DNA of 64,000 nucleotides. Origin: an uncultured virus (IMG/VR IMGVR_UViG_3300020460_001009). Its lineage: Duplodnaviria > Heunggongvirae > Uroviricota > Caudoviricetes. Each line of letters opens with the position of its first letter. Position 1 is the first letter of the stretch. The notes under the pieces were generated by a model. It was given only the letters and a program-made list of their open reading frames with translations, was not told where the DNA came from and did not search any database. The stretch lies in IMG/VR virus record IMGVR_UViG_3300020460_001009. One strand, written 5' to 3'. A program made the position numbers and the translations under genes. Below, one piece after another: positions 26,692-52,187 of this stretch.

Positions 26692-29600
26692 TTACATTTC
26701 ATATTTATCACCGAAGAATGTGCATATATGAGGATCATCACAACAGAAAGAAGTCCCTTCGATCCCATCGTATGATACAATAATATCATGATCAGATGAT
26801 TCAACAGGATCTCCGAATTTTCTATAACAATGCCCTTCATATGTAATAAACTTGGCAAAGGATTTGGATTTGGACGCAGGACCAATATAAATCACTGGAT
26901 CTGCACTCCCCGCATCACCTTCTTCTGGGAACTCACACATTTCATACCCTTGATATACCTCAGGACAACACGATAATTCCTGTATGGAGGATGACTCGGA
27001 TTCACCATTCGCACACTCCGCACAACACTCACACTCATCGTGAAAATGACTTGAGTCATAATCCAATATTGATGCAGTTTCTTCAGGTGCAATTGTTGTT
27101 GGATATATTGCCACACACATCCGTTCTCCTAAATCAACTTCACCAGGGTTGTCCGCAAAATATCCTGCCCATACATCTTTTTGAAGTCCTGTGGAAAACA
27201 ACGTAGACAGTGATCTAATTTGGGGCGAGTCTGGAAAATAACCTCCTTCACTATGTTCCGAAAGACAATCAACTAATTGATATACATTGTAAATTTCAAC
27301 GGAATGTGTTCCTGTTGCGGACGTTCCTCCATTTACGTCACTACTATTAGTGAGGTATGCTTGTACTTCCAACGTAAGTGTACCACCACGTATATCCTCA
27401 TATGCAAAGTCCGAAGTATAAGTTGGTTCAGTAACGTCCGACCATTCACTCCACTGACCAGGTGTATCTGGCAAGTCGGACTTAACTCTAACTTGCCACT
27501 CACTGGAACCCTGCGGGTCCCATGCCCATGTCGGATTATCGTACAACGGACTGGTTGAATCTGGATCAGGTGCAGGTACCAATAAATTATCAGTTGTATG
27601 GACCTGTGTTCCAAGAAGCGCACCAAGTTTCCCGTCTGAAAACTCGTAATAGTTACCATCATCATGATTACCTACATTCTCATATATATTCATGGTAATC
27701 GTAACAGTCTTTGAAACCAAACGTTCGGCCAGGACTTCTTTGGTCATCTCATTGAGTTCAGTCTGTGTGGAGAATGCCAACTCATTCGACCTGAACACCG
27801 GTGTCCAATCACTAATGTCTTCCACAGTATTTTCCACAAGAAGATCATTCTTCTCCTGACCATATCTGGTACCCCCACGAATGGGACTTCCATCATTAAG
27901 TTCGGTGATTTCGGACAAAGTGGCATTACCATCGGCATATGTCTTTTTTGTTTCATACTTAGTATAAAATACCTGACCTTTGTTGTGAGGACATGGTCCT
28001 GCCGATACATAAAACTGAGCCGTGGATCGGATATCTCCATCGGTCAAACCGGCAGTTATGATTGAATCAATTTCCAAACCAGACCCACACACCGGACTCG
28101 TATTAAGACCCGAGTCATTAGAATCCCACCACCACTCTTTACAAGTTCGTTCTGCATATGCCTCACTACTATCACATTCGGATTTTCTGCCGAAGCAACA
28201 TGTGTCAAAATTCGCATCAACTGCATTGAAATTCGCATCAAGATCGGTATATCGAGGTGCATTATTTTTCATATCGGACGAATCAGGACATAAATCGAAT
28301 CCAGATGGGTAAAACTCACCCTCAATGACGGGATTCGTCTCTGGAGCCATTGTATGATCAATATCAACCGGGTCAATGCGAACATATCTAAATTTGCGAC
28401 ACGGATGGTGGAGGTGTTCGTCCACGTCATCCGGTTTCGGGAAAGTGGATGTGCATTTTGAAAGTGAATCTGACATTACTGGAAACTCTTCCAATATGGA
28501 ATCAACTTGATCCCCAGTGAAAAGATAATAGTTGGAAGGTGTTGCTCCATCTTCATACCAATTGAATCGGTGGCCACCTGCATATAAACCAGACTCAGGA
28601 ATTGAAATTAATTCACCATTCTCAGCACCGCAGACGTCATTCTCAAATTCGTATCTTGCAATTGCAATCTGATCACCACACTCTTCTTGGTTTTGACACA
28701 CACACCCACCATCTGTAAAATAATCATGCGGTTTTGGTAAAATATTCGAAGAGTTTCTTGCATATTTCTCGGAAATATAGTATGCGTCATCAATGTTTCC
28801 AGACTCTGTGTATTTCTTGCCGAATATTGCCGACTCAACATGATACTCAATTGTGTCACCGGGTGGGGAACTTGGTACTTCAGGATTTTTTTGAGTCACT
28901 GAAAAACTATGCAACTTGTCGTGATCATATCGGGGTTTGTGGGAATCGATTTGCTCATCCCACATAACCTCACCATCGAGAACAAACCGCAAAACTACAT
29001 CTGCGTCATCCGATCCACCAACCGACAGGGTGAACTTCTTATTGTCATTATCCAAGGGGGTTATATTTCCGGTAACCGGAGCAGACAACCCGGAGATTTC
29101 ACTAGTCAGCATATCAATTTCATACTCACCTGGTGCAAGAGTAACAGTTGTTTGAATTGACTGGTCTTCATTCAATGGATACAACCATCCGTTTTCCTTG
29201 TAGAGTTGACCATCACGTGAGACATACTTAACAACGTCACCTTGTCCGATATTGGTTACGATATCGTTGGAAATCGTGGTCACAGTCACAATGTCAGAAG
29301 AGTCATCTGAATACTTCCAGGTGGCACCAGTTCCTATGGTCTGAACGTCTTTCGCATAGTCTTCATCAATGGCTGCCCAAAATAGTTCCTCAAGTTCCTC
29401 GGAAGGAGTTACGAGTATAACCGATCTGGACTGGGTAGTAATACCGAACGGGACCGTCAAGTTCATCGGAGTCAATAGGGCAGATGCGGTACCTGATCCG
29501 TGGGTTTCCGATGCTACGTACTCGGACGCACTTTCAATAGTTTCTGCAATCGCAAGACAATCACCGAGATTCACTCCACTGGCAGTATATGGTGAGGCCT

Positions 29601-30006
29601 CATTTTTCGCATCGTCTCTATCTATATAAAACACAAATTTTTCTCTACCCTCTTTGAGCTCATGATCGGGAGCATTTGCAACTTTTACATTTAGTGTAAC
29701 ATCTGGAAATTCACCCTCAGGGACCTCATCAACAGATGAAATTGCTTGACAATATAAATTAGCATCTCCGAAGTTATCAAAGTATTGTGGTATCTGTCCT
29801 GTGCCGAGAGCCGTCCGATCAACGAAATCGAAAAGGTTTCCGTGAGTTCCGTTTATATGAACATCATCTCCGTTGTATAAATATCGTACATCGAATGTCT
29901 TGGACGCACTTCCGTCAATTAAGACACAATCTGTACGACAAACCCGAATCTGCATGGAAATAAATTTTCCAGCATTGTCATTTTGTATTTCCGATTTTTC
30001 ACCCAT
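26692..30006 (-). CDS. large acidic Cys-rich protein with DPH-YEM tail (putative virion surface protein)
   Basis: ~1100 aa; ends CCDDPHICTFFGDKYEM; GGGAGA RBS before ATG 30006. Confidence 0.75.
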   Translation of the reverse strand: MGEKSEIQNDNAGKFISMQIRVCRTDCVLIDGSASKTFDVRYLYNGDDVHINGTHGNLFDFVDRTALGTGQIPQYFDNFGDANLYCQAISSVDEVPEGEFPDVTLNVKVANAPDHELKEGREKFVFYIDRDDAKNEASPYTASGVNLGDCLAIAETIESASEYVASETHGSGTASALLTPMNLTVPFGITTQSRSVILVTPSEELEELFWAAIDEDYAKDVQTIGTGATWKYSDDSSDIVTVTTISNDIVTNIGQGDVVKYVSRDGQLYKENGWLYPLNEDQSIQTTVTLAPGEYEIDMLTSEISGLSAPVTGNITPLDNDNKKFTLSVGGSDDADVVLRFVLDGEVMWDEQIDSHKPRYDHDKLHSFSVTQKNPEVPSSPPGDTIEYHVESAIFGKKYTESGNIDDAYYISEKYARNSSNILPKPHDYFTDGGCVCQNQEECGDQIAIARYEFENDVCGAENGELISIPESGLYAGGHRFNWYEDGATPSNYYLFTGDQVDSILEEFPVMSDSLSKCTSTFPKPDDVDEHLHHPCRKFRYVRIDPVDIDHTMAPETNPVIEGEFYPSGFDLCPDSSDMKNNAPRYTDLDANFNAVDANFDTCCFGRKSECDSSEAYAERTCKEWWWDSNDSGLNTSPVCGSGLEIDSIITAGLTDGDIRSTAQFYVSAGPCPHNKGQVFYTKYETKKTYADGNATLSEITELNDGSPIRGGTRYGQEKNDLLVENTVEDISDWTPVFRSNELAFSTQTELNEMTKEVLAERLVSKTVTITMNIYENVGNHDDGNYYEFSDGKLGALLGTQVHTTDNLLVPAPDPDSTSPLYDNPTWAWDPQGSSEWQVRVKSDLPDTPGQWSEWSDVTEPTYTSDFAYEDIRGGTLTLEVQAYLTNSSDVNGGTSATGTHSVEIYNVYQLVDCLSEHSEGGYFPDSPQIRSLSTLFSTGLQKDVWAGYFADNPGEVDLGERMCVAIYPTTIAPEETASILDYDSSHFHDECECCAECANGESESSSIQELSCCPEVYQGYEMCEFPEEGDAGSADPVIYIGPASKSKSFAKFITYEGHCYRKFGDPVESSDHDIIVSYDGIEGTSFCCDDPHICTFFGDKYEM

Positions 30007-30036
30007 CTTTTTCAATCTCCCAAGTATTTCATTAAC

Positions 30037-30084
30037 GTGGATTTCCCACTTATTATAATTATTCTATATACAGAGTTTTTATAA
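30037..30084 (-). promoter_or_regulatory. shared upstream element, copy 1
   Basis: TTATAAAAACTCTGTATATAGAATAATTATAATAAGTGGGAAATCCAC, repeated at 50505 and 52216. Confidence 0.8.
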
Positions 30085-30870: not shown

Positions 30871-30897
30871 AAATATAAATATGCAGAAACAGAGTTT

Positions 30898-31647
30898 TTA
30901 TAATAATTCACCCCATGAAGTATTGGAGTTTGCAACAAAGACTCGGTTTGCCAAATTTTCTTCACAGAGTTGAAAGTTCTCATAGTTGGTGGAGTTCCCC
31001 ATTCTAGTAAACGGGTGGTCACTTGGCAACTTTCGCACCAGACCTGGTTCGTAGTTTGAAAATCGTTCCACATTGTCATGTGTAATCTTATCAAGGTATC
31101 TATTGGGTATACCATGCACAATTGCTCCAGTTTTTTCCAACCTCTTCCAAAAATCAATTTCCTCGTATCCCCAACCGGACATCTGCTCATCATATCCACC
31201 AATCTTCAAAAAATCTTTCTTTCTACAAACGATTCTTCCACAAGTTCCTGCGGTGGACTCCGACCAATCCACCTTCAATACCGAATTCGTTTCTCTGGTG
31301 TACATTTCCTCAACATACTGAACAAACCCATTCTTGGTAATGTTATCGGCATCTAACCAACAAAGTATGCCTCCAGTTGCATTCTTTCCAAGAATGTTCT
31401 TTGTCTTGGACATATGAAAATACTTAGGGTTGGTTGTCTTGAGATACTTAAACTCAACTGGAAGATTTTTCAGTTGAGTTTCCAGAGTTTCCACCCATGT
31501 GTCAATATCATCCGTTGAATTATAGTTCAACAAAACGAACTCAACCTTGCACCCGGCCGTTGACAAACTATTCTTAATGTTCTTTAAGTAAGTCTGCTTC
31601 AAATGATGAAGGCGATTCATTGAACTTGTTAAAAACGACAACTTCAT
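30898..31647 (-). CDS. glycosyltransferase (GT2/GT7-like)
   Basis: MNRLHHL, LDADN (DxD), IGGYDEQMSGWGYEE. Confidence 0.85.
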   Translation of the reverse strand: MKLSFLTSSMNRLHHLKQTYLKNIKNSLSTAGCKVEFVLLNYNSTDDIDTWVETLETQLKNLPVEFKYLKTTNPKYFHMSKTKNILGKNATGGILCWLDADNITKNGFVQYVEEMYTRETNSVLKVDWSESTAGTCGRIVCRKKDFLKIGGYDEQMSGWGYEEIDFWKRLEKTGAIVHGIPNRYLDKITHDNVERFSNYEPGLVRKLPSDHPFTRMGNSTNYENFQLCEENLANRVFVANSNTSWGELL

Positions 31648-32480
31648 GACAAAATTTGATTAACCGAAACATATTTTCCACGTTTCCAGTATTCATAATA
31701 CTCCGATGACATCAATTCTATCAACTGACTCTCCGTTGATTGGGCCCACGGTGGAAACTTGGTAGTCATGATGTCGGATTCTGAAGTTTCCTTGCATAAC
31801 CCAATTTTCGGTTCAAACTTTATTGATAGACGTTTATTCGGCAATAGTTTCGGATTTGAACAAAATCCAACAAACTTATCAACTGCACATGATATTACGT
31901 TTGGTCGTGTCCAATGTTGAGTTCTTTCTCGGTTGAACATAGAATATTCCAACAACTTTGCCTCACCAAACCGTCTGTCTGGTACGGCACGAACAACTCC
32001 CTCAAAATGACTTCTGTTGTGAGTAGATTGTACCAAAATATCAGCACCTCTCCGTGTAACCAAATAACTCTCCAATCCGTCAAAATTTCTAAAATATCCA
32101 GAGTCGTGATATCTCATGTTCAACTGACATACATCGTGTCCTTGCATCAGAGGTCTGTCCGATTGTAAATATTTCTTCACATCACTATATTTGACGTCAT
32201 CCTCCAATATCAACGCACACCCAATATCTCTCTTAATTATATCTTTCCAAATTAAATAGTGACTTAAATATGCACCCACCGCACCAGTTGTCTGTGAAAA
32301 ATACAACTTGCTTGCCAGACCCACGGGATCCAATTCCAGACCATATTTCTTACATATACGATAATCACTTCTGGAATCTATTGCAGAAAATCTGCGGATG
32401 CGACTGTCCAAATTCTTAAATACATCCCACCGAGAAATTTTATCTTCCAAATTTATGAAATATATTTTCTCAATATTCAT
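31644..32480 (-). CDS. glycosyltransferase family 25
   Basis: IYFINL, RFSAID, GAYLSH..IW, LILEDD, YLVTRRGA; start reassigned to 32480. Confidence 0.85.
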   Translation of the reverse strand: MNIEKIYFINLEDKISRWDVFKNLDSRIRRFSAIDSRSDYRICKKYGLELDPVGLASKLYFSQTTGAVGAYLSHYLIWKDIIKRDIGCALILEDDVKYSDVKKYLQSDRPLMQGHDVCQLNMRYHDSGYFRNFDGLESYLVTRRGADILVQSTHNRSHFEGVVRAVPDRRFGEAKLLEYSMFNRERTQHWTRPNVISCAVDKFVGFCSNPKLLPNKRLSIKFEPKIGLCKETSESDIMTTKFPPWAQSTESQLIELMSSEYYEYWKRGKYVSVNQILS

Positions 32481-33138
32481 ATCCAAAATACTCAATGTCC
32501 TTTGCGTATTTTTCCGCAACAATTTGCCTTGTCTCATCATCGTAGTATTCGGTGTAATGTTTGTGTTTTGATTTGTTTACGTATGGAAGTTGTTGTTTTG
32601 GAATTCCAATTTTGTCGCAGATGGTGTTGAAGTCTTCTTGGAGATTTTCAACCTTTCCAACAAAATCAATTATTTTATTATCACACAAATCATACGCATA
32701 TTGATATTGCTCTCGTTCAAACGCACCATATTGTTCCAATAATCTACGCAAAGAAATAAGTTCCCCGGAACTATCACACAACGACAAACAATGTTCAATC
32801 CACATATCAGGGACTTCCATATACACCCCCCGAACCGATTTATGACTCTTCCACATATGAAGTGTCTTTTTACGATAATTGTATGCAGAGATTACACGAT
32901 CCCAGGGGTTCCTGACAAATGCGAACTTAAAATATTCCTCCCACGGCCATCCATTGTCTTCAAAAACTCCCTTTAGACGGGGAGCATTTATATGGACTCC
33001 ATAATCACCTTGGAAATCTTCACTTATCTTTTTCAAGTAATCACCACCAAGTGAACTTTGCAAAACATCACTTACACTTGAACTTGCAGTCTTAGTAGTT
33101 GCCAAAAAAACAAACTTTTTTTTATGTGATAAGATCAC
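32470..33138 (-). CDS. sulfotransferase (Sulfotransfer_2 family)
   Basis: 5'-PSB TTKTASSS, 3'-PB FVRNPWDRVIS, DFVGKVENL. Confidence 0.85.
   Translation of the reverse strand: MILSHKKKFVFLATTKTASSSVSDVLQSSLGGDYLKKISEDFQGDYGVHINAPRLKGVFEDNGWPWEEYFKFAFVRNPWDRVISAYNYRKKTLHMWKSHKSVRGVYMEVPDMWIEHCLSLCDSSGELISLRRLLEQYGAFEREQYQYAYDLCDNKIIDFVGKVENLQEDFNTICDKIGIPKQQLPYVNKSKHKHYTEYYDDETRQIVAEKYAKDIEYFGYEY
32485..32613. repeat. 129 bp direct repeat, copy 1 (sulfotransferase 3' end)
   Basis: matches 58141-58269 with one mismatch. Confidence 0.9.
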
Positions 33139-33896
33139 TTTTCATACCCCCAGTGCTTAAAGTCAATATCATACAGAAGACCTATTAGTTTCTTTGTGTC
33201 GTTCGTATAATAAGATGACCAATGGTCATGCTTACTTTTATTTATTTTTGGAAGTTTTTTACTTTTTATATTTATAGACTTGCATATAAAATCACAACTC
33301 TGTTGCAACTCCTCGGACTTTCCAACAAAGTTCATTTTTTTATGCGTGTAATTCCACGCAAATGAAGTAAACGCAATTTGTCTGAGAAAAAAGGATTCAA
33401 CCAAGTCCAATTCGTAAAATTTATGAACATAATCCTCAAAACAATCTACATTATTAAAATACTTTTTCATGTAGTTATGCTCTTCGGTCGGCTTATCCAA
33501 ATATAGGTTGTTTTGATAACCACCCAAGTGTGTATTCTTTTGTTTAAATTCCAATAACTCTTGTTTTGTACCAGTCCATTTATCTATTAGTTTTTTTCCA
33601 TATGGAGTGGATTGATGCTTCTCCCAACACTCCATAACATACAAGCAATAAAAATAATGAGAAACAAATCTTGAATACGGATTTCTAACCACCGTGCAAA
33701 AAAATATATCCTCGGTCAAACAACTTGATTTAATATCCCAAATACTTGGATGAAATGAACAATCCTCATGTCGTGTCTCGATACAATCATCCCCTTCGTG
33801 GTCAAATACTTTTTGTAAATGACTTGTAATAGTAGTCGATCCAGTTTTAGGAATCGCAACATATAATAATTTATTGGGAATATAATACATCTTCAA
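33135..33896 (-). CDS. sulfotransferase (Sulfotransfer_2 family)
   Basis: IPKTGSTTI, VVRNPYSRFVS. Confidence 0.85.
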   Translation of the reverse strand: MKMYYIPNKLLYVAIPKTGSTTITSHLQKVFDHEGDDCIETRHEDCSFHPSIWDIKSSCLTEDIFFCTVVRNPYSRFVSHYFYCLYVMECWEKHQSTPYGKKLIDKWTGTKQELLEFKQKNTHLGGYQNNLYLDKPTEEHNYMKKYFNNVDCFEDYVHKFYELDLVESFFLRQIAFTSFAWNYTHKKMNFVGKSEELQQSCDFICKSINIKSKKLPKINKSKHDHWSSYYTNDTKKLIGLLYDIDFKHWGYEK

Positions 33897-34522
33897 TCTC
33901 CAAATTTATATCCAAACTGCTCAATATCCTCCGCATATTTTTCCGCAACAAGTTGACGAGTTTCATCATCATAATACCTAGTATAATGTTTTCGTTCTGT
34001 TTTATGCACATGAACATATTTTTTATTAACAATTCCAATCTCATCACAGACATATTCAAAGTCTTTACGAAAATTCTCAAGCCTCCCAATAAAAACAAAT
34101 TCAGAATAATTTCGTGGTAAGAAATCAACAATCGGTTTCCAATGTCCGTCCGTATCTGCAAATGAATCCACTATCTTAAATATAAATTCACGAAAAGAAA
34201 AATTATTATCTATCATAAAATGAATCTCGTCGGATTGCCTATTAGTGTGAGACCAAACTCTGTGATTTAACACCTTGTCTGCCCAGCAACTAACCAATCT
34301 CTCATATGGATTCCTGACAAACGCAAAATTAAAAAAATTCATATGCTCACTGCGGTACTGCATTGACCCCCACGGATACGAAGTATCATCACGGGACGTG
34401 TGCATATCCAAGTGATCAGATATTGTACATGACGCACATTTTGGAATCTTAAACCAACAATACTTTGATTCAGTTGATATATGCAGTGGAAATGTTTTCT
34501 TTAATACAGCATCACCCATCAA
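33893..34522 (-). CDS. sulfotransferase (Sulfotransfer_2 family)
   Basis: IPKCASCTI, FVRNPYERLVS, DGHW.P, FIGRLENF. Confidence 0.85.
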   Translation of the reverse strand: MMGDAVLKKTFPLHISTESKYCWFKIPKCASCTISDHLDMHTSRDDTSYPWGSMQYRSEHMNFFNFAFVRNPYERLVSCWADKVLNHRVWSHTNRQSDEIHFMIDNNFSFREFIFKIVDSFADTDGHWKPIVDFLPRNYSEFVFIGRLENFRKDFEYVCDEIGIVNKKYVHVHKTERKHYTRYYDDETRQLVAEKYAEDIEQFGYKFGD

Positions 34523-37252: not shown

Positions 37253-37326
37253 CTAAATGTGTTTATTATTCCTCTATTATAAATAGAGAAATTAAATAGT
37301 TTTTATAGTAACCAACGTGGTACAAT

Positions 37327-37773: not shown

Positions 37774-37785
37774 AATAGATTTCCT

Positions 37786-39719: not shown

Positions 39720-39725
39720 ACAATG

Positions 39726-42424: not shown

Positions 42425-42433
42425 CTGCCAACG

Positions 42434-44173: not shown

Positions 44174-47100
44174 TCACCTCCATATAAGATCAGAGTGTTT
44201 ATATATGCGTAATCCACCTATTCGTGGACGAGTATTCTCTATCCAAATCTCAATCGTATCCGGACGATTCCAGTTTTCACCAGTAGTCGTAAACGTGGCA
44301 CTATTTACAATATTCACATCTTTTCGTTTCGTGTTCATTTGACTCCCGTCCACCTCGTTCCAAACAACATTACAATTTTTATCACCAGATTTTCTCAAGA
44401 ATCGCATGGAGATTTTTGTAGATTTAATATTGTCAATAACAATAGTATACTTGGTATTGGCATCCAAACGATCAATTGTCTTGCGAAGTTTCATGACACT
44501 CTGGTCGGTGGACCTCCTAACCACATCATACTCAAGTGGTTTTTGATCGAACCAGGCCGACTTCAGGGTAACACCTCCGTGAGTCCAATCTTCCGGAACT
44601 CCGGAGTCATCCGATTTCGAGAAAGTCTCCAAGACAACCGCATTGCAACCCACCTCAACAATAGATGCCGATGCAATTTTATGATATGATTTCATAGCAA
44701 TTTCAATTGTGTCTGGAGTTGCCCAGTCCTCATCAGAAATTTCAAACTTGGCAGTTTTCTTAATACGAACTGAACTTGATTTAAATTTCGTGTCCAATTG
44801 AACCTCACCATCAATCGAAGTCCACTTAATTGGGGCAGACTTTGTTCCACCTTTTCGCAAAAACTGCACAGGAACTGGTTTATCTTTATAAACATTTAAG
44901 TTAATGACATACTCAACTCCGGCACGAAACTCATGTTCAAATCCACCGTTAAGTATAATCGGTGCTTTACCATGTACAAATCCATTGGACAATGCCATCG
45001 ACTTCAACATATCGGTTTCTAAATTTTGCGTATCTTTGGACTCACTAGCCCCACTGTGAGTGGCAGTTTTCCAATCGGATATTTTCCCCGATTCAATTAT
45101 ACCAAAGTATGAATTCTTAATATAATCCGCACATCTAGGTGGAATTGGACAATGACTTACGTTCAAACTACCAGATGTTTCATTAGGATTCCCCCACTGC
45201 AACTCAAGTGGACATGAAATTCCATAACTGGCATCAATAGGAAATGACGAATGATCCGGAAGAATCTCCTCTCCACCAAGTTCATTACTGATGATCCACG
45301 AAGTTGGTAGATAACTCATCTGTTCACCCATCCAGTTCCAATAAATGTATCTGCGAGTTCCCTTGAAATCTTTACCAAGTGTGCTTTTCCAATATCTTCT
45401 TGGATATCCAGAACCATCATCATAGGTTCCAGGTGAAAAATACTCACCATTTACATGTTCGTCTGCGGAACCAGTTATGCAGATATTAGTCCCACCGCAC
45501 TCTCCTGGCCACGGATGTGGTGCGGGAGTCGGTGATTGCATTGCAGGCAACATAAACGTAGTCACAAAAACCGCATCTTGATATACAACTGGTTCTGATT
45601 CGTATTGACTTTGTGCAGGATATAATTTCAATTCAACGGGAAGTTCCTCCTCTTGTGACATATTATACATGGAGGGCAGATTAATCGTGAGAGTTTGATC
45701 AGACACATATTGAATGCCCTGATGTGGCCAACCTTCTCCCAAATAATCAACTTCCCACGCCCACATATCAACTCCATCACCGGCAACTTCATCAATGAGT
45801 ATCACAACATCAGTACCATCAACCGTAACTGAATCCAGTTTAATATACGGGGCAACTATGCAATTACTACTAGTTATTTGCAAATCACCTGCATTGGTGT
45901 GTGACGTGCCATTTGTTATATAATTTCTCCAAGTTCTATCAGTTGGACAATCTCCTCCTGGGGCATCTGCCTTACCAAGTTCCGCAAGTACCGTGTTTGA
46001 AAAGGAATATGGATTATAACCATTTCGGTTCTTTACAATTGCCCACCAACCTTCGTGGTTTTCCAATTCTCCATATGATTCGGTGGTGAATGTGGATTCA
46101 CCATACCCAACAGTAACCACGGGTTGCATGGTATATACAAGTGAATAATAACCATTGGAATAAATACTTTTATCATTCAATGTATATTGAGTTTTTGTAT
46201 ACTCACCACTAACATCTGAATGTTGACTAGTATACGATGCAGGATGTTTACACATATAAATTGAGTTCAAATCACATCCATCCGTAGTAACCGGTGGTTC
46301 GGTTGAACTTCCACTTGGTGGTGGTTCGGTTGAACTTTCACTTGGTGGTGAAGCTTGCGTTACTTGGATTCCACTTGGCCAAACTGACTGAAATGGACAT
46401 ACACCATACGAAACATATGATGCGGAGACCGCAATTTCAGAACCATAACTCAACTTCCAATTACAATTGTACCAACATAACTGAATACCATTGTTCAGTC
46501 CCCATTTTGGCATACCAGCTGAGTCCAATCCCATGTAGTCAAGTATAAAACCTCCACCCAAAGAACTATCATTTAGTAACTCACCCCCGACTTGTATCTG
46601 TGGGTTGGAGTATCTGCACAATTGTGCCTCGGCAACTCCTCCACGGACCGTGAGTTCCTGACAATCCAGTGTGGACTCCGCACCAGTTGCGGTAGCACTG
46701 GCAGGAATAACATCATCACAATCACCAATTGTTATAGTTCCACCATAATTCGTGGAAACTCCGTCTCCATATGGATTTTCGTCAACCAGATTAACCTTAA
46801 TGAATCGGTTAGTTTGATGATCTCCTGCCCAGGAAATTCTATATCCAGTATAATCTGTTCCCTCAAAATACTCCAGTTGATGAGTTCCGGAGTTCACAGG
46901 AATCGTATGCGTCCAGTAGGGTTTGTTATCAACTCCATTACCTTGATACTCATATACTCCATTGAGAGTATTGGAACTGGGTTTGGGATACATATAGTCT
47001 TCGTTTGAATTTGGCATATTGGCCGTTGAAATTCCATGTACACATATGGTTGGTGGTGAACCAACACTGGGACACTCCGGAAATTCACAATTATTATTTG

Positions 47101-47608
47101 GGTCTCTACCAACGGTTGTTCCGTCTGGACAATGGTGCACATCTGCCGGACAAACCACCGCAGACTCTTTCAATGATATTTCAGAAAGTTTAGTAAACTT
47201 GTTATTAAACTGAATCTCAATCGTATCCACATCTCCATTGTAGTCGGCTAATGTTGTAAACTTTGCCGATGTTTTCACAATTTGAACCGCACCGGTGATC
47301 GTTGGAGTAAATCCGTCAATACCATCCACCTCTTTCCAGTGAACCTTGGCATTCTTCGCACCGTCTTTTCTTTTGAATTTAATTCGAACTTCTTTACCGT
47401 CAGATGCCGGTTCAGGTGATATGTTTATGACATAGTCAACTTCCCTGGATAGTTTTGAGAACGATTGTTTGATAATCACACTACCATCACTATCGGTTCG
47501 TTGCACAATGCCTTTATTAAGTTTTGTTGCATTAAATTTTTCTTGATTAAGTTGCCAGCTGACAAATCCATCATTGAAATTTCCATTGGTTATCAATTCA
47601 TCTCCCAT
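44174..47608 (-). CDS. large modular surface/fibre-like protein with three repeated jelly-roll-like domains
   Basis: F.RK.G.K....W...DG...DTIEI three times; CPDG..VGRDP..CEF..CP module; Pro/Ser linkers. Confidence 0.7.
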   Translation of the reverse strand: MGDELITNGNFNDGFVSWQLNQEKFNATKLNKGIVQRTDSDGSVIIKQSFSKLSREVDYVINISPEPASDGKEVRIKFKRKDGAKNAKVHWKEVDGIDGFTPTITGAVQIVKTSAKFTTLADYNGDVDTIEIQFNNKFTKLSEISLKESAVVCPADVHHCPDGTTVGRDPNNNCEFPECPSVGSPPTICVHGISTANMPNSNEDYMYPKPSSNTLNGVYEYQGNGVDNKPYWTHTIPVNSGTHQLEYFEGTDYTGYRISWAGDHQTNRFIKVNLVDENPYGDGVSTNYGGTITIGDCDDVIPASATATGAESTLDCQELTVRGGVAEAQLCRYSNPQIQVGGELLNDSSLGGGFILDYMGLDSAGMPKWGLNNGIQLCWYNCNWKLSYGSEIAVSASYVSYGVCPFQSVWPSGIQVTQASPPSESSTEPPPSGSSTEPPVTTDGCDLNSIYMCKHPASYTSQHSDVSGEYTKTQYTLNDKSIYSNGYYSLVYTMQPVVTVGYGESTFTTESYGELENHEGWWAIVKNRNGYNPYSFSNTVLAELGKADAPGGDCPTDRTWRNYITNGTSHTNAGDLQITSSNCIVAPYIKLDSVTVDGTDVVILIDEVAGDGVDMWAWEVDYLGEGWPHQGIQYVSDQTLTINLPSMYNMSQEEELPVELKLYPAQSQYESEPVVYQDAVFVTTFMLPAMQSPTPAPHPWPGECGGTNICITGSADEHVNGEYFSPGTYDDGSGYPRRYWKSTLGKDFKGTRRYIYWNWMGEQMSYLPTSWIISNELGGEEILPDHSSFPIDASYGISCPLELQWGNPNETSGSLNVSHCPIPPRCADYIKNSYFGIIESGKISDWKTATHSGASESKDTQNLETDMLKSMALSNGFVHGKAPIILNGGFEHEFRAGVEYVINLNVYKDKPVPVQFLRKGGTKSAPIKWTSIDGEVQLDTKFKSSSVRIKKTAKFEISDEDWATPDTIEIAMKSYHKIASASIVEVGCNAVVLETFSKSDDSGVPEDWTHGGVTLKSAWFDQKPLEYDVVRRSTDQSVMKLRKTIDRLDANTKYTIVIDNIKSTKISMRFLRKSGDKNCNVVWNEVDGSQMNTKRKDVNIVNSATFTTTGENWNRPDTIEIWIENTRPRIGGLRIYKHSDLIWR

Positions 47609-47638
47609 AATATATCTCCGTATTCAATATTTTCAAAT

Positions 47639-49141
47639 TTACATTTCGTAAGTTTCACCGAAAAAGGTGCATATGTGTGGGTCGCATCCCGCACTTGCCC
47701 AACCGTGACTATTCTTGGGACACTCACACAGGTCATCAGGATCCCCCACACAATGTCCAGTTCCATTACCCTTTGCCGGGCCCGACACCTCCTCTCCAGT
47801 ACACGCATCGATGCACGTTTCACAACAACTGGATTGGTCTTCCTGAAGTGCCTGTGTAGTTTCGTCACACACCTCACACGCACAACAATTTTCTGGCCAC
47901 AAATCTGAATTTGAATGTATATCTGCCGACGTATGCAATTGATCTTCGGGAGGAAGAAAACCATTCTGCACCGGTTTATTTTTTATAGTATGTAAATTGA
48001 ATACACCCCAATTGGCATTTGCATCATCCTTCCATGCTTCCATCGCATAATCATTGCCATAGTACATCGTATATACAAAACAATCCCCATCCTGGTTTGG
48101 TAAATATGCAAAATTCAACTTCGTTCCCCGATCATTCGTTTGGTTTTTTTGTGCGTCTCCCCATGTAGGTAGAAATGTAGTTAGTTTTTCTATATAGTCT
48201 TGCAGTGACACTCCTTCCAAAATTCCCCATTCCTGAACTTCAGGTTCCAAAGTCCACGGATGTCCATCGACACATGTATGAATTTTATGTTTTATCCACA
48301 ATAGATTCAACTTGGATGCACATCCATCCCCTGAATTACAATCATCATGGGAATTTGCCCAGAGATTATGTGCCGAACCACTTGTAAAGTCTGCCCCACC
48401 GGGAACAAAATCCAACCGTGTACATCCATCATCCTGACACTCATACGAATGATAACATTTATCCGCATCACACTGTGGGTTGTCTGTATTTTCTTCCGCA
48501 CTAGTTTTACAACAAACATCACCACCCTTTTCAGGAGTAGTCCATATTTGAAAACACGGACTTGTGGTTTCATGCAAAGCAGGTCCGAAGTCATGACACT
48601 CCGCAACAATTCCACACGCACCCGGTACACGAATTGCATCGTAGGAGTCATCATACCACTGTTCTGGTACAAGAAGATCGTTGTAGTTGGATTCATCAGT
48701 TCCTGCAGGATTGTATGTAATAGAACCATCTGCCGACTGAGTGAATGCCCTTGGTTTCTCTCCAGTCAGACCCGCAAATCTTACTTGACACGGTCCGTGG
48801 ACCGGATGTTGAAAATAGTAGAACTTTTTTGTATCAATCTTGTTACCAGGTACATTAAGTTTAACATAAAGGGTATCCACCTGTTGGCCAATTGTAATGT
48901 ATGGAAAGGTATTGTCCGTCCGGTTAGACCAGTCGTCTGTCGTCGATGGAGCCGCATGGAGAGTGTTTGGACCAAGCTTGTACTCTTCAGGTTTATCATC
49001 CAATGCCGAGTCGGTACGGTCTCGATCCACATACATAACAGAGCCAGAATCATTGTCTGGACAAGTGAAAGAATATGGTTTTACAATCCCGGCCTGGTAA
49101 GAGTTTCCTGTACTTTGTTGTTTGCTTTGTTCATTTTTCAT
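47639..49141 (-). CDS. Cys-rich protein with DPH-YEM tail
   Basis: 500 aa; ends GCDPHICTFFGETYEM. Confidence 0.75.
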   Translation of the reverse strand: MKNEQSKQQSTGNSYQAGIVKPYSFTCPDNDSGSVMYVDRDRTDSALDDKPEEYKLGPNTLHAAPSTTDDWSNRTDNTFPYITIGQQVDTLYVKLNVPGNKIDTKKFYYFQHPVHGPCQVRFAGLTGEKPRAFTQSADGSITYNPAGTDESNYNDLLVPEQWYDDSYDAIRVPGACGIVAECHDFGPALHETTSPCFQIWTTPEKGGDVCCKTSAEENTDNPQCDADKCYHSYECQDDGCTRLDFVPGGADFTSGSAHNLWANSHDDCNSGDGCASKLNLLWIKHKIHTCVDGHPWTLEPEVQEWGILEGVSLQDYIEKLTTFLPTWGDAQKNQTNDRGTKLNFAYLPNQDGDCFVYTMYYGNDYAMEAWKDDANANWGVFNLHTIKNKPVQNGFLPPEDQLHTSADIHSNSDLWPENCCACEVCDETTQALQEDQSSCCETCIDACTGEEVSGPAKGNGTGHCVGDPDDLCECPKNSHGWASAGCDPHICTFFGETYEM

Positions 49142-49181
49142 ATTAATACGTTCCCTATTTTAATTTCAATTGTTTACACGT

Positions 49182-50474
49182 TCACATTTCGTAAGTTTCA
49201 CCGAAGAACGTACATATGTGTGGGTCGCATCCCCCACTTGCAAATCCAGGACTTGTTTTGGGACAGTCACAGGGTTCCGCGGACATGGCCTCAGGGCAAA
49301 GTTCGATTTCACCGGTCTTGTGCCCCTCCTTTGCCTTATCACTTGGATTGCATGGATCATAACAGTCCTCTGGTGGTGGTGGTTCGGGTGGTGGTGGTCC
49401 CTGACACTGTATAACCTGACCACACAAATCTTCCGTTTCCGTGGAAGTGGGTACCGTCATTTGGCACACCGGCATACTTGATGCCAAGTTTATTTCAGGC
49501 AATCCCATTACAAATCGGGCGATATTCAAATCTTCAGTTGCAGATGTAGTTGGTATTGGATAAAGCACATCCTCTCCACATCCGACCCCCAGTGGGTCCA
49601 ACTCATGGTCGATAGGAATCTGAGTCTCAGTTGACTCACCCAACGAAGGTAACTCTGGTGTTGTTTCACAAGTTGGGTTTGGCCAGCAACAACCATATGG
49701 GTCTAGATATGAAGTTCCATATTTTGCAGCCAAAACATACCCATTCGAATCATATGCTCCTATGGCTTCAAGTAGGCCTACATTTGGGCCTTCTTCTTCA
49801 TATCTACCATTATTCCACAATGCTTCCAAAATTTTCCTCTGGTCTCCACATGACCACGAATACTGACTTAGCCCCTTCATTTGAGTTGGGCAATCAGGTA
49901 CACATCTTGGTTCAAGGTCAGTTTCCACAGGGTCTCCATGAGATTCACACTCAGTTGCGTCATCACCACCCGTGAACTGTTCACTCGTTTTCATGAATGT
50001 CGCACATTTTCCTGTTGTTATATCTATATAATTTTTGCGTGGACAACAATCCCAAACACTCAGATTTCCATCCTCCGTGGTCTCGTAATATGGTTCAGTG
50101 TCATCATCATGTGGAGTCAAGTCAATTTCTCCAAATTTGTGAGTAACCCCGTGGTCATCATCCCATGTATATCTTGGCCATGGGTGACTGCCATCAGTAT
50201 ATGGGTCATCTAGGTCTGTAATGGTTTTGGACTCTACGGAAGTTATATGAATCTTAAAGCATTGTCCTTTAATATCAGTAGGAAATGGAGAAAACGCAGA
50301 AGTTTCTATATCATACCGTTCACTTCCAGCTGCTCGATAAGTTCCGGGTGAAAACTCGTCTGTTGATACCCATGTAGTGTCTACCCCCTCAGTATTCCAA
50401 GTGGGTTTCCGTTCACCACATTTTTCAATCGTATAGATTGTAATACTATGTGTATAATAAGTTATATCTGCCAT
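49182..50474 (-). CDS. Cys-rich protein with DPH-YEM tail
   Basis: 430 aa; ends GCDPHICTFFGETYEM; GGGAGA RBS. Confidence 0.75.
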   Translation of the reverse strand: MADITYYTHSITIYTIEKCGERKPTWNTEGVDTTWVSTDEFSPGTYRAAGSERYDIETSAFSPFPTDIKGQCFKIHITSVESKTITDLDDPYTDGSHPWPRYTWDDDHGVTHKFGEIDLTPHDDDTEPYYETTEDGNLSVWDCCPRKNYIDITTGKCATFMKTSEQFTGGDDATECESHGDPVETDLEPRCVPDCPTQMKGLSQYSWSCGDQRKILEALWNNGRYEEEGPNVGLLEAIGAYDSNGYVLAAKYGTSYLDPYGCCWPNPTCETTPELPSLGESTETQIPIDHELDPLGVGCGEDVLYPIPTTSATEDLNIARFVMGLPEINLASSMPVCQMTVPTSTETEDLCGQVIQCQGPPPPEPPPPEDCYDPCNPSDKAKEGHKTGEIELCPEAMSAEPCDCPKTSPGFASGGCDPHICTFFGETYEM

Positions 50475-50504
50475 ATTTTAATCTCCCATTTATTTCATCA
50501 TCAA

Positions 50505-50552
50505 GTGGATTTCCCACTTATTATAAATACTCTATATACAAAGTTTTTATAA
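50505..50552 (-). promoter_or_regulatory. shared upstream element, copy 2
   Basis: TTATAAAAACTTTGTATATAGAGTATTTATAATAAGTGGGAAATCCAC. Confidence 0.8.
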
Positions 50553-50555
50553 AAA

Positions 50556-52187
50556 TTACATTTCATATTTTTCACCGAAGAAGGTGCATACGTGTGGGTC
50601 ACCACAACATTCCCCAAGGTTATTGGTCATTGAATCTTTCACATCATCATAAACATACTCTTCCCAATCGTTTTCGTTTGTTTGACTTTGTTCGTCGTAA
50701 TTTTCAAAACAACAATCTTCATTCCTCGGATAAAACGATGGCAAAAGTTCGTCAGCAGATGCTTTTATCAGAATAATACGTGGACCACACTCGTCTTCCG
50801 ACTGATTATCACATAATTTATATGTGTGGTATACTTGGTCTGCCGGCTCGAACAATACCGATGATGTGCCGAAGGTTGCTGGTTTATCAATTTCCACCAG
50901 TACCACATTCGGTGAATCACCATCTTGTATCCCTATCTCTCCCGCAGGATTATCCGAACCAGAGGTAACCGAGACAACGGTTCGGTTCTCGGATATATTT
51001 GTATATGGTGACAATATTGCAGTTGCACCCTCGATTGCTCCGTCTGGAATAGACTCTGATGTAAAACTCATGGTGGTGCTTCCTGCTTCAACAATTTTAG
51101 CTCCATCAAGGACTAGTGTTGAAATCGGTGAACAATCACACGCAGACGGATTCCATGTGCTACCGGGACCACAATCTATTTGTCCTGAATAAGCATTTGC
51201 GAAACACTCACATTCACACGTAGACTCGTTCCACATGGAAGAATCCTTTCGGTTGCAGTTATATATTTCCCAATTTGAGTTCGGACACTCACAAGAACAT
51301 TGTCCAGGAACATCTGGGTTGGTGACCATCTTCTTGACGTCACCACACGCAACATCATTACACTCACATTGACAAGTTTCTTCATTAAAGGTCTGTGGAC
51401 TTGGGCAAGTTGTTCCCGAGTTCATACAAATACCCTCACAAGTATCCGCATTCCACCGACCCATATCCAACGATGTCCACTTCTCCGCCTCTTCTTGGTC
51501 TGGACATAGACATAAACACTGACCATTTTCGGTTAGAGTTGTGACTCGATTTCCGGTACATTCCAAGTCTTTACATACACAATCGCACTCCTCGTTGATT
51601 TCCATCATTCCGTTGTTACACGTCCAATTTGAGTCATGCTCAAGGGATATACAATCACACGAACACGTGCCCGGAATAAAATATTTTCCTTCATGTTGGG
51701 ATTCACACTCATCAATAGCAACTGACATCAGTTTGCCACCACATCCACATCCACATCCATCTTCTCCTTGAACTGCGGTTTGGTCGTCAGTGCATTCCAA
51801 CGCATCTTCGTCACATACGCATTTACAGGTGTCGGGGTCTTGTCCATCATACCCATTTTTCATATTAGGTGGGCATTTATCCGTGTCACCAGGAGACCCC
51901 AACATACATTCACAGGTACAAGTTTCCTCATCCCAATGTGTTATAGACTCTGCATCGCCTCCAGTTGCACACTTGGTTGCAAGGTCTGAGTCTGGACACG
52001 CACATATACATCCACCTGAATCACCGTGCATCCACGTTTCAACTCTTGGTTGATTGCATCCTTGTGTCGCACAGTGACACGAACATTCACCTTCGTTCGT
52101 ATTTGTTCCCTCGGGACATTCGTCCACGGTTTTTCCATATAAAGTGTAAGACGTACAGCCTTCGTTCAGTGTTTCAGAATCATCCAT
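50556..52187 (-). CDS. CXCXC-repeat Cys-rich protein with DPH-YEM tail
   Basis: about 13 CxCxC units; ends CCGDPHVCTFFGEKYEM; GGGAGA RBS before ATG 52187. Confidence 0.8.
   Translation of the reverse strand: MDDSETLNEGCTSYTLYGKTVDECPEGTNTNEGECSCHCATQGCNQPRVETWMHGDSGGCICACPDSDLATKCATGGDAESITHWDEETCTCECMLGSPGDTDKCPPNMKNGYDGQDPDTCKCVCDEDALECTDDQTAVQGEDGCGCGCGGKLMSVAIDECESQHEGKYFIPGTCSCDCISLEHDSNWTCNNGMMEINEECDCVCKDLECTGNRVTTLTENGQCLCLCPDQEEAEKWTSLDMGRWNADTCEGICMNSGTTCPSPQTFNEETCQCECNDVACGDVKKMVTNPDVPGQCSCECPNSNWEIYNCNRKDSSMWNESTCECECFANAYSGQIDCGPGSTWNPSACDCSPISTLVLDGAKIVEAGSTTMSFTSESIPDGAIEGATAILSPYTNISENRTVVSVTSGSDNPAGEIGIQDGDSPNVVLVEIDKPATFGTSSVLFEPADQVYHTYKLCDNQSEDECGPRIILIKASADELLPSFYPRNEDCCFENYDEQSQTNENDWEEYVYDDVKDSMTNNLGECCGDPHVCTFFGEKYEM

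What the first reader, a model, noticed from the sequence alone, without database searches (positions are those of the whole stretch)
26692..52187. Four unrelated large Cys-rich proteins end in the same vWD-like 'DPH...YEM-stop' tail: a candidate C-terminal docking/autocleavage tag
Seen: ORFs 26692-30006, 47639-49141, 49182-50474 and 50556-52187 have different bodies. They end in CCDDPHICTFFGDKYEM, GCDPHICTFFGETYEM (twice) and CCGDPHVCTFFGEKYEM, each followed at once by a stop. The DNA differs at synonymous sites, so the conservation is at the peptide level. Known: C..GDPH..TF.G..Y is the first strand of von Willebrand factor type D domains, and its Asp-Pro bond autocleaves in mucins and RGM proteins; Asp-Pro cleavage can give a reactive anhydride that cross-links. 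Inference: this isolated ~15 aa strand cannot fold alone, so it may be a sorting tag that docks interchangeable cargo proteins onto a shared partner (strand complementation, then cleavage or covalent attachment). I know of no described phage system like this.
Basis: partly seen in the sequence, partly recalled or inferred. Interest (0 to 1): 0.92.

Follow-up and report, generated by a model that had tools for sequence, protein, structure and literature searches.

The report
Shared mucin-like end tag on virus proteins
A very large marine virus-like genome gives many unrelated acidic, cysteine-rich proteins the same 15-residue ending, which copies the self-cutting GDPH site of mucin-type (von Willebrand D) domains and stops right after it, so it is probably a common handle for docking or attaching these proteins, though what it binds is unknown.

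Summary
Four minus-strand genes in the window end in DPH[IV]CTFFG[DE][KT]YEM followed by a stop.

- **Spread:** the same ending closes 34 non-redundant proteins from 13 marine metagenome contigs and a 1.84-billion-protein library. In all 28 DNA-distinct cases the stop follows at once.
- **Selection:** D, P, H, T, F, F and M never change, although their codons do.
- **Bodies:** without the tail the proteins fall into 21 unrelated groups. Subsets, including the window's four, also share 60-90-residue Cys-rich modules just before the tail.
- **Nearest known sequence:** the tail's best match among solved structures is the GDPH autocleavage site of FCGBP VWD domains (E 0.014). No VWD body follows it.
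- **New context:** a conserved ~77-nt promoter/leader cassette occurs only in front of tail genes. The genes sit inside a sulfated-glycan island (10 sulfotransferases, a PAPS pathway, at least 7 glycosyltransferases). A DUF1501 gene on related contigs points to a Verrucomicrobiota/PVC host.
- **Structure:** AlphaFold folds the preceding module but leaves the tail disordered.

My reading is a trans-recognised C-terminal handle, possibly cleaved at Asp-Pro. No partner was found, and neither cleavage nor binding is shown. It is absent from IMG/VR, GTDB genomes, GenBank phages and the searched literature.

The parts
26692..30006 (-). Tail-bearing gene A (1104 aa, acidic, 30 Cys). The tail DPHICTFFGDKYEM plus stop is at 26692-26736.
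   Evidence: no Pfam or PHROG family; no match in GenBank phages
30007..30083 (-). Promoter/leader cassette: TATAAAAACTCTGTATATAG, then TTATAATAAGTGGGA, a short hairpin-like GTGGGA..CCAC, and TGGGAGATT (Shine-Dalgarno) before the ATG of gene A.
   Evidence: family D10
50556..52187 (-). Tail-bearing gene B (543 aa from ATG 52187; about 10% Cys, CXCXC repeat). The tail is at 50556-50600.
52188..52264 (-). Promoter/leader cassette in front of gene B.
49182..50474 (-). Tail-bearing gene C (430 aa). The tail is at 49182-49226.
   Evidence: relative P0007 also ends in the tail
50475..50551 (-). Promoter/leader cassette in front of gene C, starting 5 nt after gene B's stop.
47639..49141 (-). Tail-bearing gene D (500 aa). 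The tail is at 47639-47683. It has no cassette of its own and lies 40 nt after gene C.
   Evidence: relatives P0002 and P0003 end in the tail
44174..47608 (-). Tail-less 1144-aa protein, 30 nt downstream of gene D, with three carbohydrate-binding-module-like jelly-roll repeats. Its orthologue follows the tail genes in L008 too.
   Evidence: pLDDT 81.7; Foldseek: CBM16/32/35, hyaluronan-binding and porphyran-binding modules, E 2e-4 to 1e-2, TM 0.3-0.48
20471..24365 (-). Context: sugar epimerase/dehydratase, CysN-like GTPase, CysD-like PAPS_reduct-fold protein and APS kinase, which together activate sulfate to PAPS.
24407..26106 (-). Context: S8 subtilase with a Pro/Glu-rich linker, a C-terminal membrane helix and no signal peptide. 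It overlaps an upstream 142-aa all-beta ORF by 4 nt. The arrangement is conserved next to a tail gene in L026.
30898..40397 (-). Context: 4 glycosyltransferases, 4 Sulfotransfer_2 genes, SAM synthetase and a QueF-like gene.
52751..63816 (-). Context: at least 3 glycosyltransferases and 6 sulfotransferase genes.

Best explanation
The tail [G/S/C/D]-DPH-[V/I]-x-TFF-G-E-K-[Y/F]-[D/E]-M-COOH is a short C-terminal handle that works on its own. It derives from the GDPH site and the two strands that follow it in a von Willebrand D-type domain, and it ends where that hairpin ends.

A lineage of very large marine virus-like genomes puts this handle on a co-regulated set of proteins. The likely host is a Verrucomicrobiota/PVC bacterium. 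There are at least 8 such genes in this genome or its 99.9%-identical strain. The proteins are acidic, poor in Lys and Arg, rich in Cys, lack signal peptides, and have interchangeable bodies.

I infer that a common partner recognises the tail in trans, by strand addition and/or through the free C-terminal Met. That would bring all these bodies to one place, such as the virion surface or a glycan/protein scaffold made by the surrounding sulfated-glycan genes. The invariant Asp-Pro-His makes cleavage at Asp|Pro after docking a real possibility.

Shown: the anatomy, the strict terminal position, purifying selection, the VWD-site likeness, the shared promoter cassette and the genomic context. Inferred: recognition in trans, the partner, any cleavage, and the location.
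For: **Position**
- 28 of 28 DNA-distinct tails are followed at once by a stop, and the search pattern did not demand one.
- 13 of 15 profile hits among 1.84e9 proteins lie at the extreme C-terminus. The other two are a junk repeat and a dinoflagellate protein.

**Selection**
- Invariant residues carry 2-4 synonymous codons each.

**Independence from the body**
- There are 21 body clusters among 34 proteins.
- In 6 of 34 the 20 residues before the tail are at least 55% P/T/S/G with 0-1 Cys.
- AF2 folds the preceding module (pLDDT 72-83) but leaves the tail at pLDDT 42 with no secondary structure.

**Origin**
- The best PDB hits of the tail profile are FCGBP VWD GDPH sites (E 0.014 and 0.19).
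- The only protein with the motif internal (P0012, named by its source as Durusdinium trenchii) continues into a domain that the Atlas places with VWD: score 0.91, TM 0.54-0.58.
- In VWD, D and H are needed for cleavage. Both are invariant here.

**Regulon**
- The cassette occurs 3 times in the window against 0.13 expected, each time before a tail gene.
- Of 12 non-redundant occurrences, 7 precede complete tail genes and 2 precede cut ORFs whose N-termini match tail families.

**Composition**
- Cys 4.4% against 1.7%, and K+R 5.8% against 12.5%, compared with neighbouring ORFs.
- 0 of 36 have a signal-peptide-like N-terminus.
Against: - No partner was identified.
- No VWD-like or other receiver appeared in the roughly 110 kb readable: phmmer with P0012 found only the tails, and Pfam at E<=5 on 18 unknown neighbours gave no VWD.
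- In many members Cys-Cys directly precedes the tail and a Cys sits inside it, which could tie it to the protein's own Cys-rich module.
- The AF2 alignment had only 8 rows, so a disordered tail is weak evidence.
- The residue before Asp is Gly in only 17 of 34, and the VWD residues around the site are missing. VWD-style autocleavage cannot simply be assumed.
- Virus status and host are inferred. No capsid, portal or terminase gene lies in the DNA I could read.
Confidence: 0.45

Rival explanations
1. Self-cleaving coupling handle of the inter-alpha-inhibitor heavy-chain type. After docking to a receiver, or after an acid or metal trigger, the Asp-Pro bond breaks through an Asp anhydride. The 13-residue PH...M peptide leaves, and the new C-terminal Asp is esterified or amidated to a glycan or protein. 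This would load many cargo proteins onto the sulfated polysaccharide encoded around them.
For: - D, P and H are invariant. D-to-A/N and H-to-N mutations block VWD cleavage (PMC10880436 section 2.4).
- ITI heavy chains lose a C-terminal pro-domain and become ester-linked through their C-terminus to GalNAc of chondroitin sulfate (PMC7170535 introduction).
- ITIH3/5/6 carry GDPH in a VWD-like sandwich.
- The tail genes are embedded among 10 Sulfotransfer_2 genes, PAPS synthesis and at least 7 glycosyltransferases.
- They are followed by a protein with three CBM-like modules.
- A bacterial disordered domain (MIIA/DUF1521) also cuts itself at GDPH on Ca2+ binding (PMC6506597 passages).
Against: - Only 13 residues follow the cut site, against 239-244 in ITI heavy chains and a whole sandwich in VWD.
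- Gly before Asp is not conserved (17 of 34).
- There is no VWA, DUF1521 or VWD Pfam hit in 26 tail proteins scanned.
- Gene neighbourhood within one viral lineage is not independent evidence.
- There is no chemistry data.
Confidence: 0.15
2. Cis element. The tail is simply the last beta-hairpin of each protein's own fold. It would pack on the Cys-rich C-terminal module or clasp with the N-terminal strand, stabilised by disulfides, with no partner and no cleavage.
For: - The window's four proteins and many relatives share 60-90-residue Cys-rich modules that run straight into the tail, with CC or C just before DPH.
- Many N-termini share a loose 'MA..Y.h.h...C' pattern: MA start in 14 of 36 against 7 of 155, and a first Cys within 30 residues in 29 of 36 against 69 of 155.
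Against: - The tail is far more conserved than any module, and it sits on at least three different module types or on bare PTS linkers.
- AF2 does not pack it.
- The Cys inside the tail and the CC before it do not co-vary (table, by inspection).
Confidence: 0.2
3. Oligomerisation or polymerisation tag. The hairpin would drive trimer formation like the T4 fibritin foldon, or disulfide-linked multimers as VWD assemblies do in mucins. Either would build fibres or a mesh.
For: - The sequence shape is hairpin-like (HVCTFF-GE-KYDM).
- Cysteines flank it.
- Secreted thioredoxin-like genes lie directly downstream of tail genes in L009 and L024.
- The foldon comparison is recalled, not tested.
Against: - Only 15 conserved residues.
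- The tail Cys is replaced by T, R, N, S or A in about half the tails (13 of 28).
- The thioredoxins carry signal peptides, whereas the tail proteins do not.
Confidence: 0.12
4. C-terminal export, degradation or peptide-release signal. The free ...Y[D/E]M-COOH would be read by a transporter or protease (for example the adjacent membrane-anchored S8 subtilase), or the released 13-mer would itself be the product.
For: - The terminal Met and the strict end position are invariant.
- The proteins have no N-terminal signal peptide yet an extracellular-looking composition.
- An S8 subtilase is conserved beside one tail gene in the window and in L026.
Against: - No known secretion signal looks like this.
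- The S8 gene accompanies only one of the tail loci.
- Precursors of known signalling peptides are small and carry Sec signals (recalled).
Confidence: 0.08

Closest known systems
GDPH autocleavage site of von Willebrand D domains (FCGBP, MUC2/MUC5AC, RGM family)
   Same: The sequence matches: GDPH-[Y/V]-x-TF-[D/F]-G-x-x-Y-D-M. FCGBP is the top PDB hit of the tail profile. D and H are essential in VWD and invariant here. The proteins are Cys-rich and some carry mucin-like PTS stretches.
   Different: The VWD domain continues for about 150 residues after the motif. Here the protein stops 11 residues after the Pro. There is no Pfam VWD hit. Gly is not conserved. There is no signal peptide. The genome is viral or bacterial in style, not animal.
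Inter-alpha-inhibitor heavy chains (ITIH1-3)
   Same: A large protein whose C-terminal Asp-Pro-His site is cut, after which the new C-terminus is ester-linked to a sulfated glycosaminoglycan. Here the tail genes lie inside a sulfated-glycan gene island.
   Different: The ITIH leaving group is a folded pro-domain of 239-244 residues; here it would be 13 residues. ITIH has a VWA domain. No coupling is shown here.
MIIA/DUF1521 domain of NopE1 and VIC_001052
   Same: It is a bacterial, intrinsically disordered region that cuts itself at GDPH when Ca2+ binds. The tail here is also predicted disordered.
   Different: MIIA is an internal domain of about 170 residues. There is no DUF1521 Pfam hit here, and the flanking sequence differs.
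C-terminal sorting or docking tags on variable cargo (T9SS CTD, PEP-CTERM, LPXTG; poxvirus ankyrin PRANC/F-box tails) - recalled
   Same: One conserved C-terminal element sits on many different bodies encoded by paralogous genes.
   Different: Those cargo proteins have N-terminal signal peptides and/or a membrane helix in the tag, or a helical F-box. None of these features is present here (sequences).

Membership tests
von Willebrand factor type D domain (Pfam PF00094) | GDPH-type motif followed by x-x-TF-x-G-x-x-Y | tested here: met
   The tail profile A5 against PDB sequences gives FCGBP VWD sites as the top hits, E 0.014 and 0.19. Gly is present in only 17 of 34 tails.
von Willebrand factor type D domain (Pfam PF00094) | Complete beta-sandwich of about 150 residues after the motif | tested here: not met
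   A stop codon lies 11 residues after the Pro in 28 of 28 DNA-distinct tails.
von Willebrand factor type D domain (Pfam PF00094) | Match to the Pfam model at or above its cut-off | tested here: not met
   There is no VWD hit in 26 tail proteins, nor in 18 unknown neighbours at E<=5.
von Willebrand factor type D domain (Pfam PF00094) | Autocatalytic Asp-Pro cleavage | not testable with these tools
   This needs protein chemistry.
Inter-alpha-inhibitor heavy chain type glycan coupling | Folded C-terminal pro-domain (239-244 aa) after the D|PH site | tested here: not met
   Only 13 residues follow the Asp. The pro-domain size is from PMC7170535.
Inter-alpha-inhibitor heavy chain type glycan coupling | Ester bond from the C-terminal Asp to a glycosaminoglycan sugar | not testable with these tools
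   Only the context is available: sulfotransferases, PAPS genes and glycosyltransferases.
MIIA / DUF1521 | Match to Pfam DUF1521 | tested here: not met
   No such hit appeared.
Sec-dependent C-terminal sorting tags (T9SS CTD, PEP-CTERM, LPXTG) | N-terminal signal peptide on the cargo | tested here: not met
   0 of 36 tail proteins have a signal-peptide-like N-terminus by a crude hydrophobic-run test, against 10 of 155 other ORFs.
Sec-dependent C-terminal sorting tags (T9SS CTD, PEP-CTERM, LPXTG) | Hydrophobic helix plus basic end, or a beta-sandwich CTD of about 80 residues | tested here: not met
   The tail is 15 residues, acidic, and ends in Y[D/E]M.
Foldon-like trimerisation tag | Self-association of the C-terminal piece | tested here: inconclusive
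   The three-copy complex job gave no verdict.

The most novel reading that the evidence does not exclude
A natural 'tag and catcher' or ITI-heavy-chain-like ligation system in a giant bacterial virus. The 13 residues after Asp would be a disposable leaving group. On docking, the Asp-Pro bond breaks through an anhydride, and each of at least 8 interchangeable cargo proteins becomes covalently tied by its new C-terminal Asp to a virus-made sulfated polysaccharide or to a receiver protein. The result would be a viral proteoglycan-like coat that could mimic the sulfated glycans on which PVC hosts feed.
Probability: 0.12. Interest if true: 0.92.

Novelty: new variant of a known kind. Interest (0 to 1): 0.72.

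Why it matters
**If the tail is a portable 15-residue docking or self-cleaving ligation handle,** it would be:
- the first stand-alone use of the mucin/VWD GDPH chemistry;
- the first such system in a bacterial virus;
- a possible compact protein-coupling tool.

**Other reasons it matters**
- It marks a whole regulon, with its own promoter cassette, of unknown acidic Cys-rich proteins.
- That regulon sits inside a virus-encoded pathway for sulfated glycans, which is itself unusual.
- It gives a concrete entry point (peptide, promoter, gene set) into the biology of an undescribed lineage of roughly 0.5-Mb marine viruses of PVC bacteria.
- This lineage is missing from IMG/VR and from cultured phages.

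Tried and rejected
**Searches that found nothing**
- The whole genome was not available, so about 385 kb of the 495-kb contig (length) was not examined for a receiver or for capsid genes.
- Tail DNA patterns in IMG/VR: 0 hits. The cassette in IMG/VR: 0 hits. The tail pattern in 185,579 GTDB species genomes: 0 hits.
- Megablast of 12 kb against GenBank phages found no match. tblastn of gene A found no match. tblastn of the 769-aa helicase gave only a 21.6% hit to a cyanophage.
- PHROGs gave nothing for the tail proteins.
- The first 4-sequence tail profile against PDB found no hit. P0012 against PDB sequences found no hit.
- phmmer of P0012 against all ORFs of the window and loci matched only the tails, so no VWD body was found.

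**Searches of limited yield**
- The word-based search for more tails returned only 4 candidates. A search for relatives of P0012 returned only itself.
- The Atlas gave nothing usable for gene D (pLDDT 0.30).
- Foldseek with the C-terminal module model found nothing at E<=0.001.
- Sigma-70 and terminator scans were at chance level.

**Jobs without a verdict**
- Complex prediction of three copies of the C-terminal module plus tail gave no verdict: score 0.00, controls not run. It counts neither for nor against self-association.

**Weak or withheld evidence**
- Laying runs: a seawater RNA library holds contigs of 90-95%-alike relatives of genes B and D. Contigs cannot show transcription, so this is only a weak hint of expression.
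- Small-share runs were not used for habitat claims.

**Ideas considered and dropped**
- Read-through or frameshift past the stop: the downstream DNA is not conserved, and the next gene starts 30-80 nt on.
- RiPP-like core peptide: no radical-SAM or other maturase was seen.
- Recombination cassette: the repeats are only 58 nt at 66-86% identity (family D11).
- A eukaryotic giant virus: Shine-Dalgarno leaders, 4-nt gene overlaps, and a Tat-like N-terminal motif and lipobox-like N-termini in ORFs on related contigs (read by eye) argue for a bacterial host.


Full report
**1.

On the minus strand, ORFs 26692-30006, 47639-49141, 49182-50474 and 50556-52187 end in ...CCDDPHICTFFGDKYEM...GCDPHICTFFGETYEM (twice) and ...CCGDPHVCTFFGEKYEM, each followed directly by a stop. 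A six-frame regex finds these four places in the 64 kb and no others. The DNA of the four tails differs at synonymous sites, and the sequence after the stop is not conserved between them.

**2. The bodies are only partly unrelated**

BLAST among the four proteins shows that p26692 and p50556 share about 96 residues before the end (31% identity, E 3e-10). p47639 and p49182 share about 64 residues (50% identity, E 5e-15). Everything further upstream is unrelated.

With relatives added, two recurrent Cys-rich C-terminal modules appear. A third arrangement has the tail hanging on a Pro/Thr/Ser/Gly-rich linker.

**3. Where the window comes from**

- The window is 100% identical to part of a 131-kb marine metagenome contig.
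- The protein index records the same proteins on a contig of 495,094 bp.
- No whole genome is held for the window.

**4. How widespread and how strict the tail is**

A degenerate DNA pattern covering D-P-H...M, without a stop codon, found 13 metagenome contigs. It found nothing in IMG/VR and nothing in 185,579 prokaryote species genomes.

In the fetched DNA every instance is followed at once by a stop:
- 25 of 25.
- 28 of 28 DNA-distinct entries. One gene is counted twice because two contigs are 99.9% identical.
- Stop codons are TAA 22, TAG 3 and TGA 3.

D, P, H, T, F, F and M are invariant while their codons vary.

A profile of the four tails against 1.84 billion representative proteins gave 15 hits at E<=0.001.
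- Thirteen are at the extreme C-terminus. Three of these are the window's own proteins.
- One is a low-complexity repeat.
- One is P0012, where the motif is internal four times.

In all I have 34 non-redundant tail proteins. With the last 16 residues removed they form 21 BLAST clusters, 15 of them singletons.

The genome of the window, or its near-identical strain, carries at least 8 tail genes: four in the window, two in L024, one in L018 and one more in L001.

Of 26 tail proteins scanned against Pfam, one has a family above its cut-off, the CXCXC repeat in p50556. PHROGs gave nothing.

**5. What the tail resembles**

A 26-sequence, 20-column profile searched against all PDB chain sequences returns as its two best hits the IgG-Fc-binding protein FCGBP, at its VWD GDPH sites. 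GDPHYTTFDGRRYDM aligns with the consensus GDPHVCTFFGEKYDM (E 0.014 and 0.19). The third hit is only a 5-residue 'DPH[IV]' coincidence.

P0012 is named by its source as a Durusdinium trenchii protein. Each of its internal motifs begins a domain of about 170 residues.
- The ESM Atlas places that domain with VWD clusters by features (0.91; 18 of 30 hits).
- It also does so by structure (TM 0.54-0.58).
- Pfam and PDB sequence searches do not reach it.

I read sections 2.3, 2.4 and 2.7 of PMC10880436. In VWD domains:
- GDPH lies between strands 1 and 2.
- The piece lost on cleavage carries strand 1.
- D-to-A/N and H-to-N mutations abolish cleavage.
- The Gly-Asp bond is cis.

So the tail corresponds to the cut site plus the hairpin after it, not to 'the first strand'. 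Here Gly precedes Asp in only 17 of 34 tails.

**6. New features found here**

*(a) A promoter/leader cassette.* The sequence is TATAAAAACTC[C/T]GTATATAG-N-ATA-N-TTATAATAAGTGGGA...TGGGAGATT-N5-ATG.
- It occurs three times in the window against 0.13 expected, at 30007-30083, 50475-50551 and 52188-52264. Each copy is directly upstream of a tail gene.
- Gene D follows gene C without a cassette of its own.
- Across the window and loci there are 12 non-redundant occurrences:
  - 7 precede complete tail genes.
  - 2 precede ORFs cut by a contig end whose N-termini match tail families.
  - 1 is at a contig end.
  - 2 precede other genes: an LMW-phosphatase-like gene in L026 and a 2OG-Fe(II) oxygenase in L007.
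- A different, sigma-70-like repeated promoter/leader occurs six times at 2.6-20.2 kb (families D3 and D5). The tail genes therefore form their own expression class.

*(b) Composition.*
- Tail proteins have 4.4% Cys against 1.7% in neighbouring ORFs.
- D+E is 16.7% against 13.4%.
- K+R is 5.8% against 12.5%.
- None of 36 has a signal-peptide-like N-terminus.

*(c) Context: an island for sulfated glycans.*
- It holds ten Sulfotransfer_2-type genes, CysN/CysD/APS-kinase homologues, a sugar epimerase/dehydratase and at least seven glycosyltransferases.
- Gene D is followed after 30 nt by a 1144-aa tail-less protein with three repeats. These fold confidently (pLDDT 81.7) as CBM-like jelly rolls. 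The protein has an orthologue in the same position in L008.
- In other loci the tail genes are followed by two or three secreted thioredoxin-like proteins (L009, L024). In L015 they are followed by a lectin-like protein, a formylglycine-generating enzyme and a nuclease, and these ORFs begin with signal-peptide-like hydrophobic N-termini read by eye.

*(d) Host.*
- A DUF1501 protein (Tat-like motif at its N-terminus, read by eye) and DUF1549/1553 genes lie on the related contigs.
- The DUF1501 protein's best 80 relatives in GTDB genomes are about 72 Verrucomicrobiota-labelled and 6 Planctomycetota-labelled, with identity up to 56%.
- Together with Shine-Dalgarno leaders and 4-nt gene overlaps, this argues for a bacterial (PVC) host.
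- Virus status rests on PHROG hits, a T4-type dNMP kinase, a phage PDDEXK nuclease, one-strand gene arrays and absence from cellular genomes. No capsid or terminase gene lies in what I could read.

**7. Structure tests**

- AF2 on the last 100 residues of gene A, with 8 aligned relatives, gives a small beta module at pLDDT 72-83. The last 12 residues have pLDDT 42 and no secondary structure.
- Foldseek finds no solved relative of the module.
- The three-copy complex job gave no verdict.

**8. Reading**

The tail is the best conserved element of these proteins, yet it is detachable from any particular body. It is tethered by flexible linkers in some members, it is not packed by AF2, and it is always terminal with an invariant last residue. 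That is the signature of a short linear handle read in trans.

The invariant Asp-Pro-His is the triad needed for VWD cleavage. GDPH self-cleavage also occurs in a disordered bacterial domain on Ca2+ binding (PMC6506597 passages). Cleavage after docking is therefore plausible.

The closest functional analogue is the inter-alpha-inhibitor heavy chain. It loses a C-terminal pro-domain and becomes ester-linked through its C-terminus to chondroitin sulfate (PMC7170535 introduction). ITIH3/5/6 carry GDPH in a VWD-like sandwich. The sulfated-glycan island makes this analogy attractive. However, the leaving group here is 13 residues rather than about 240, and no receiver was found.

I therefore put 0.45 on a trans-recognised docking or attachment handle. 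The rivals are:
- covalent ITI-like coupling, 0.15;
- a purely cis element, 0.20;
- an oligomerisation tag, 0.12;
- an export, degradation or peptide-release signal, 0.08.

**9. Novelty**

- Full-text searches for six tail peptide words found 0 papers.
- Searches on GDPH with virus, and on jumbo phages with sulfotransferases, found nothing describing this.
- The moraphage paper (abstract read) concerns a different lineage, with genomes up to 307 kb and Bacteroidota hosts.
- PVC bacteria that make sulfated glycosaminoglycan-like polymers are on record (PMC7356697, search listing only).
- Earlier notes of this scan record bacterial VWD domains with GDPH in other genomes. These give a plausible source for the motif. 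I did not re-test them.

Noticed in passing
window 2583-2672, 8442-8531, 11742-11831, 12237-12326, 16009-16098, 20171-20224 (minus strand): A second repeated intergenic element has six copies. On the coding strand it reads TTGACTTTTTATAA...GTACTTGTATTGAGA. It looks like a sigma-70-type promoter with a conserved leader and differs from the tail-gene cassette. Its translation produced the recurring pseudo-ORF 'LTFYKKFGRVxVLRMRK' seen in several loci.
   Followed up: partly
window 32470-34522, 39726-40397, 58120-62536: Ten paralogous Sulfotransfer_2-type genes lie here (DNA repeat families D1, D2, D4, D6-D8, D12). They sit beside CysN, CysD and APS kinase at 21526-24365. Together this is a full route to PAPS plus many carbohydrate sulfotransferases in a virus-like genome.
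   Followed up: partly
window 24407-26106: An S8 subtilase has no signal peptide or propeptide, a (P/E/V)-rich repeat linker and a C-terminal membrane helix. Its start overlaps by 4 nt the stop of a 142-aa all-beta ORF, which may be a separate chaperone or inhibitor.
   Followed up: no
window 26112-26603 and L026:2633-3142: An LMW-phosphatase-like protein whose P-loop region reads FIGSGKSYRGK, with Gly where the catalytic Cys would be (by eye). In L026 it carries the tail-gene cassette 14 nt upstream.
   Followed up: no
L009:11191-12725, L024:10121-11113: Two or three tandem thioredoxin-like (Thioredoxin_8/TlpA-type) genes, with signal-peptide-like N-termini (by eye), lie directly downstream of tail-gene clusters. 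This is notable because the tail proteins are Cys-rich but lack signal peptides.
   Followed up: partly
L015:3834-7666; L014:13327-16040: Next to tail genes lie several other ORFs: a lectin-like protein, a formylglycine-generating enzyme and an EEP nuclease with a lipobox-like N-terminus. There is also a DUF1501 protein with a Tat-like N-terminal motif and DUF1549/1553 genes. The N-terminal signals were read by eye. The closest relatives of the DUF1501 protein are Verrucomicrobiota.
   Followed up: partly
L007:745-1500: A 2OG-Fe(II) oxygenase (prolyl-hydroxylase-like family) sits behind the same cassette as the tail genes. Several tail proteins have poly-Pro/Thr linkers that could be its substrates.
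   Followed up: no
window 3160-8312: Repeat families D9 and D16 share a ...CCCCACGGATC... core and recur inside a run of small minus-strand ORFs. They are probably a paralogous small-gene family.
   Followed up: no
window 11001-11132: A tandem 66-nt duplication (82% identity) lies inside ORF 10671-11186.
   Followed up: no
window 19694-19769: A single tRNA-Met (CAT) gene on the minus strand.
   Followed up: no
L001, L016, L018 just after tail-gene stops: A second conserved motif, TTAATATAATTGATTGATATTTAA, follows the stop of another subset of tail genes. It also appears as loose ends of related strains' contigs at window 50550.
   Followed up: no
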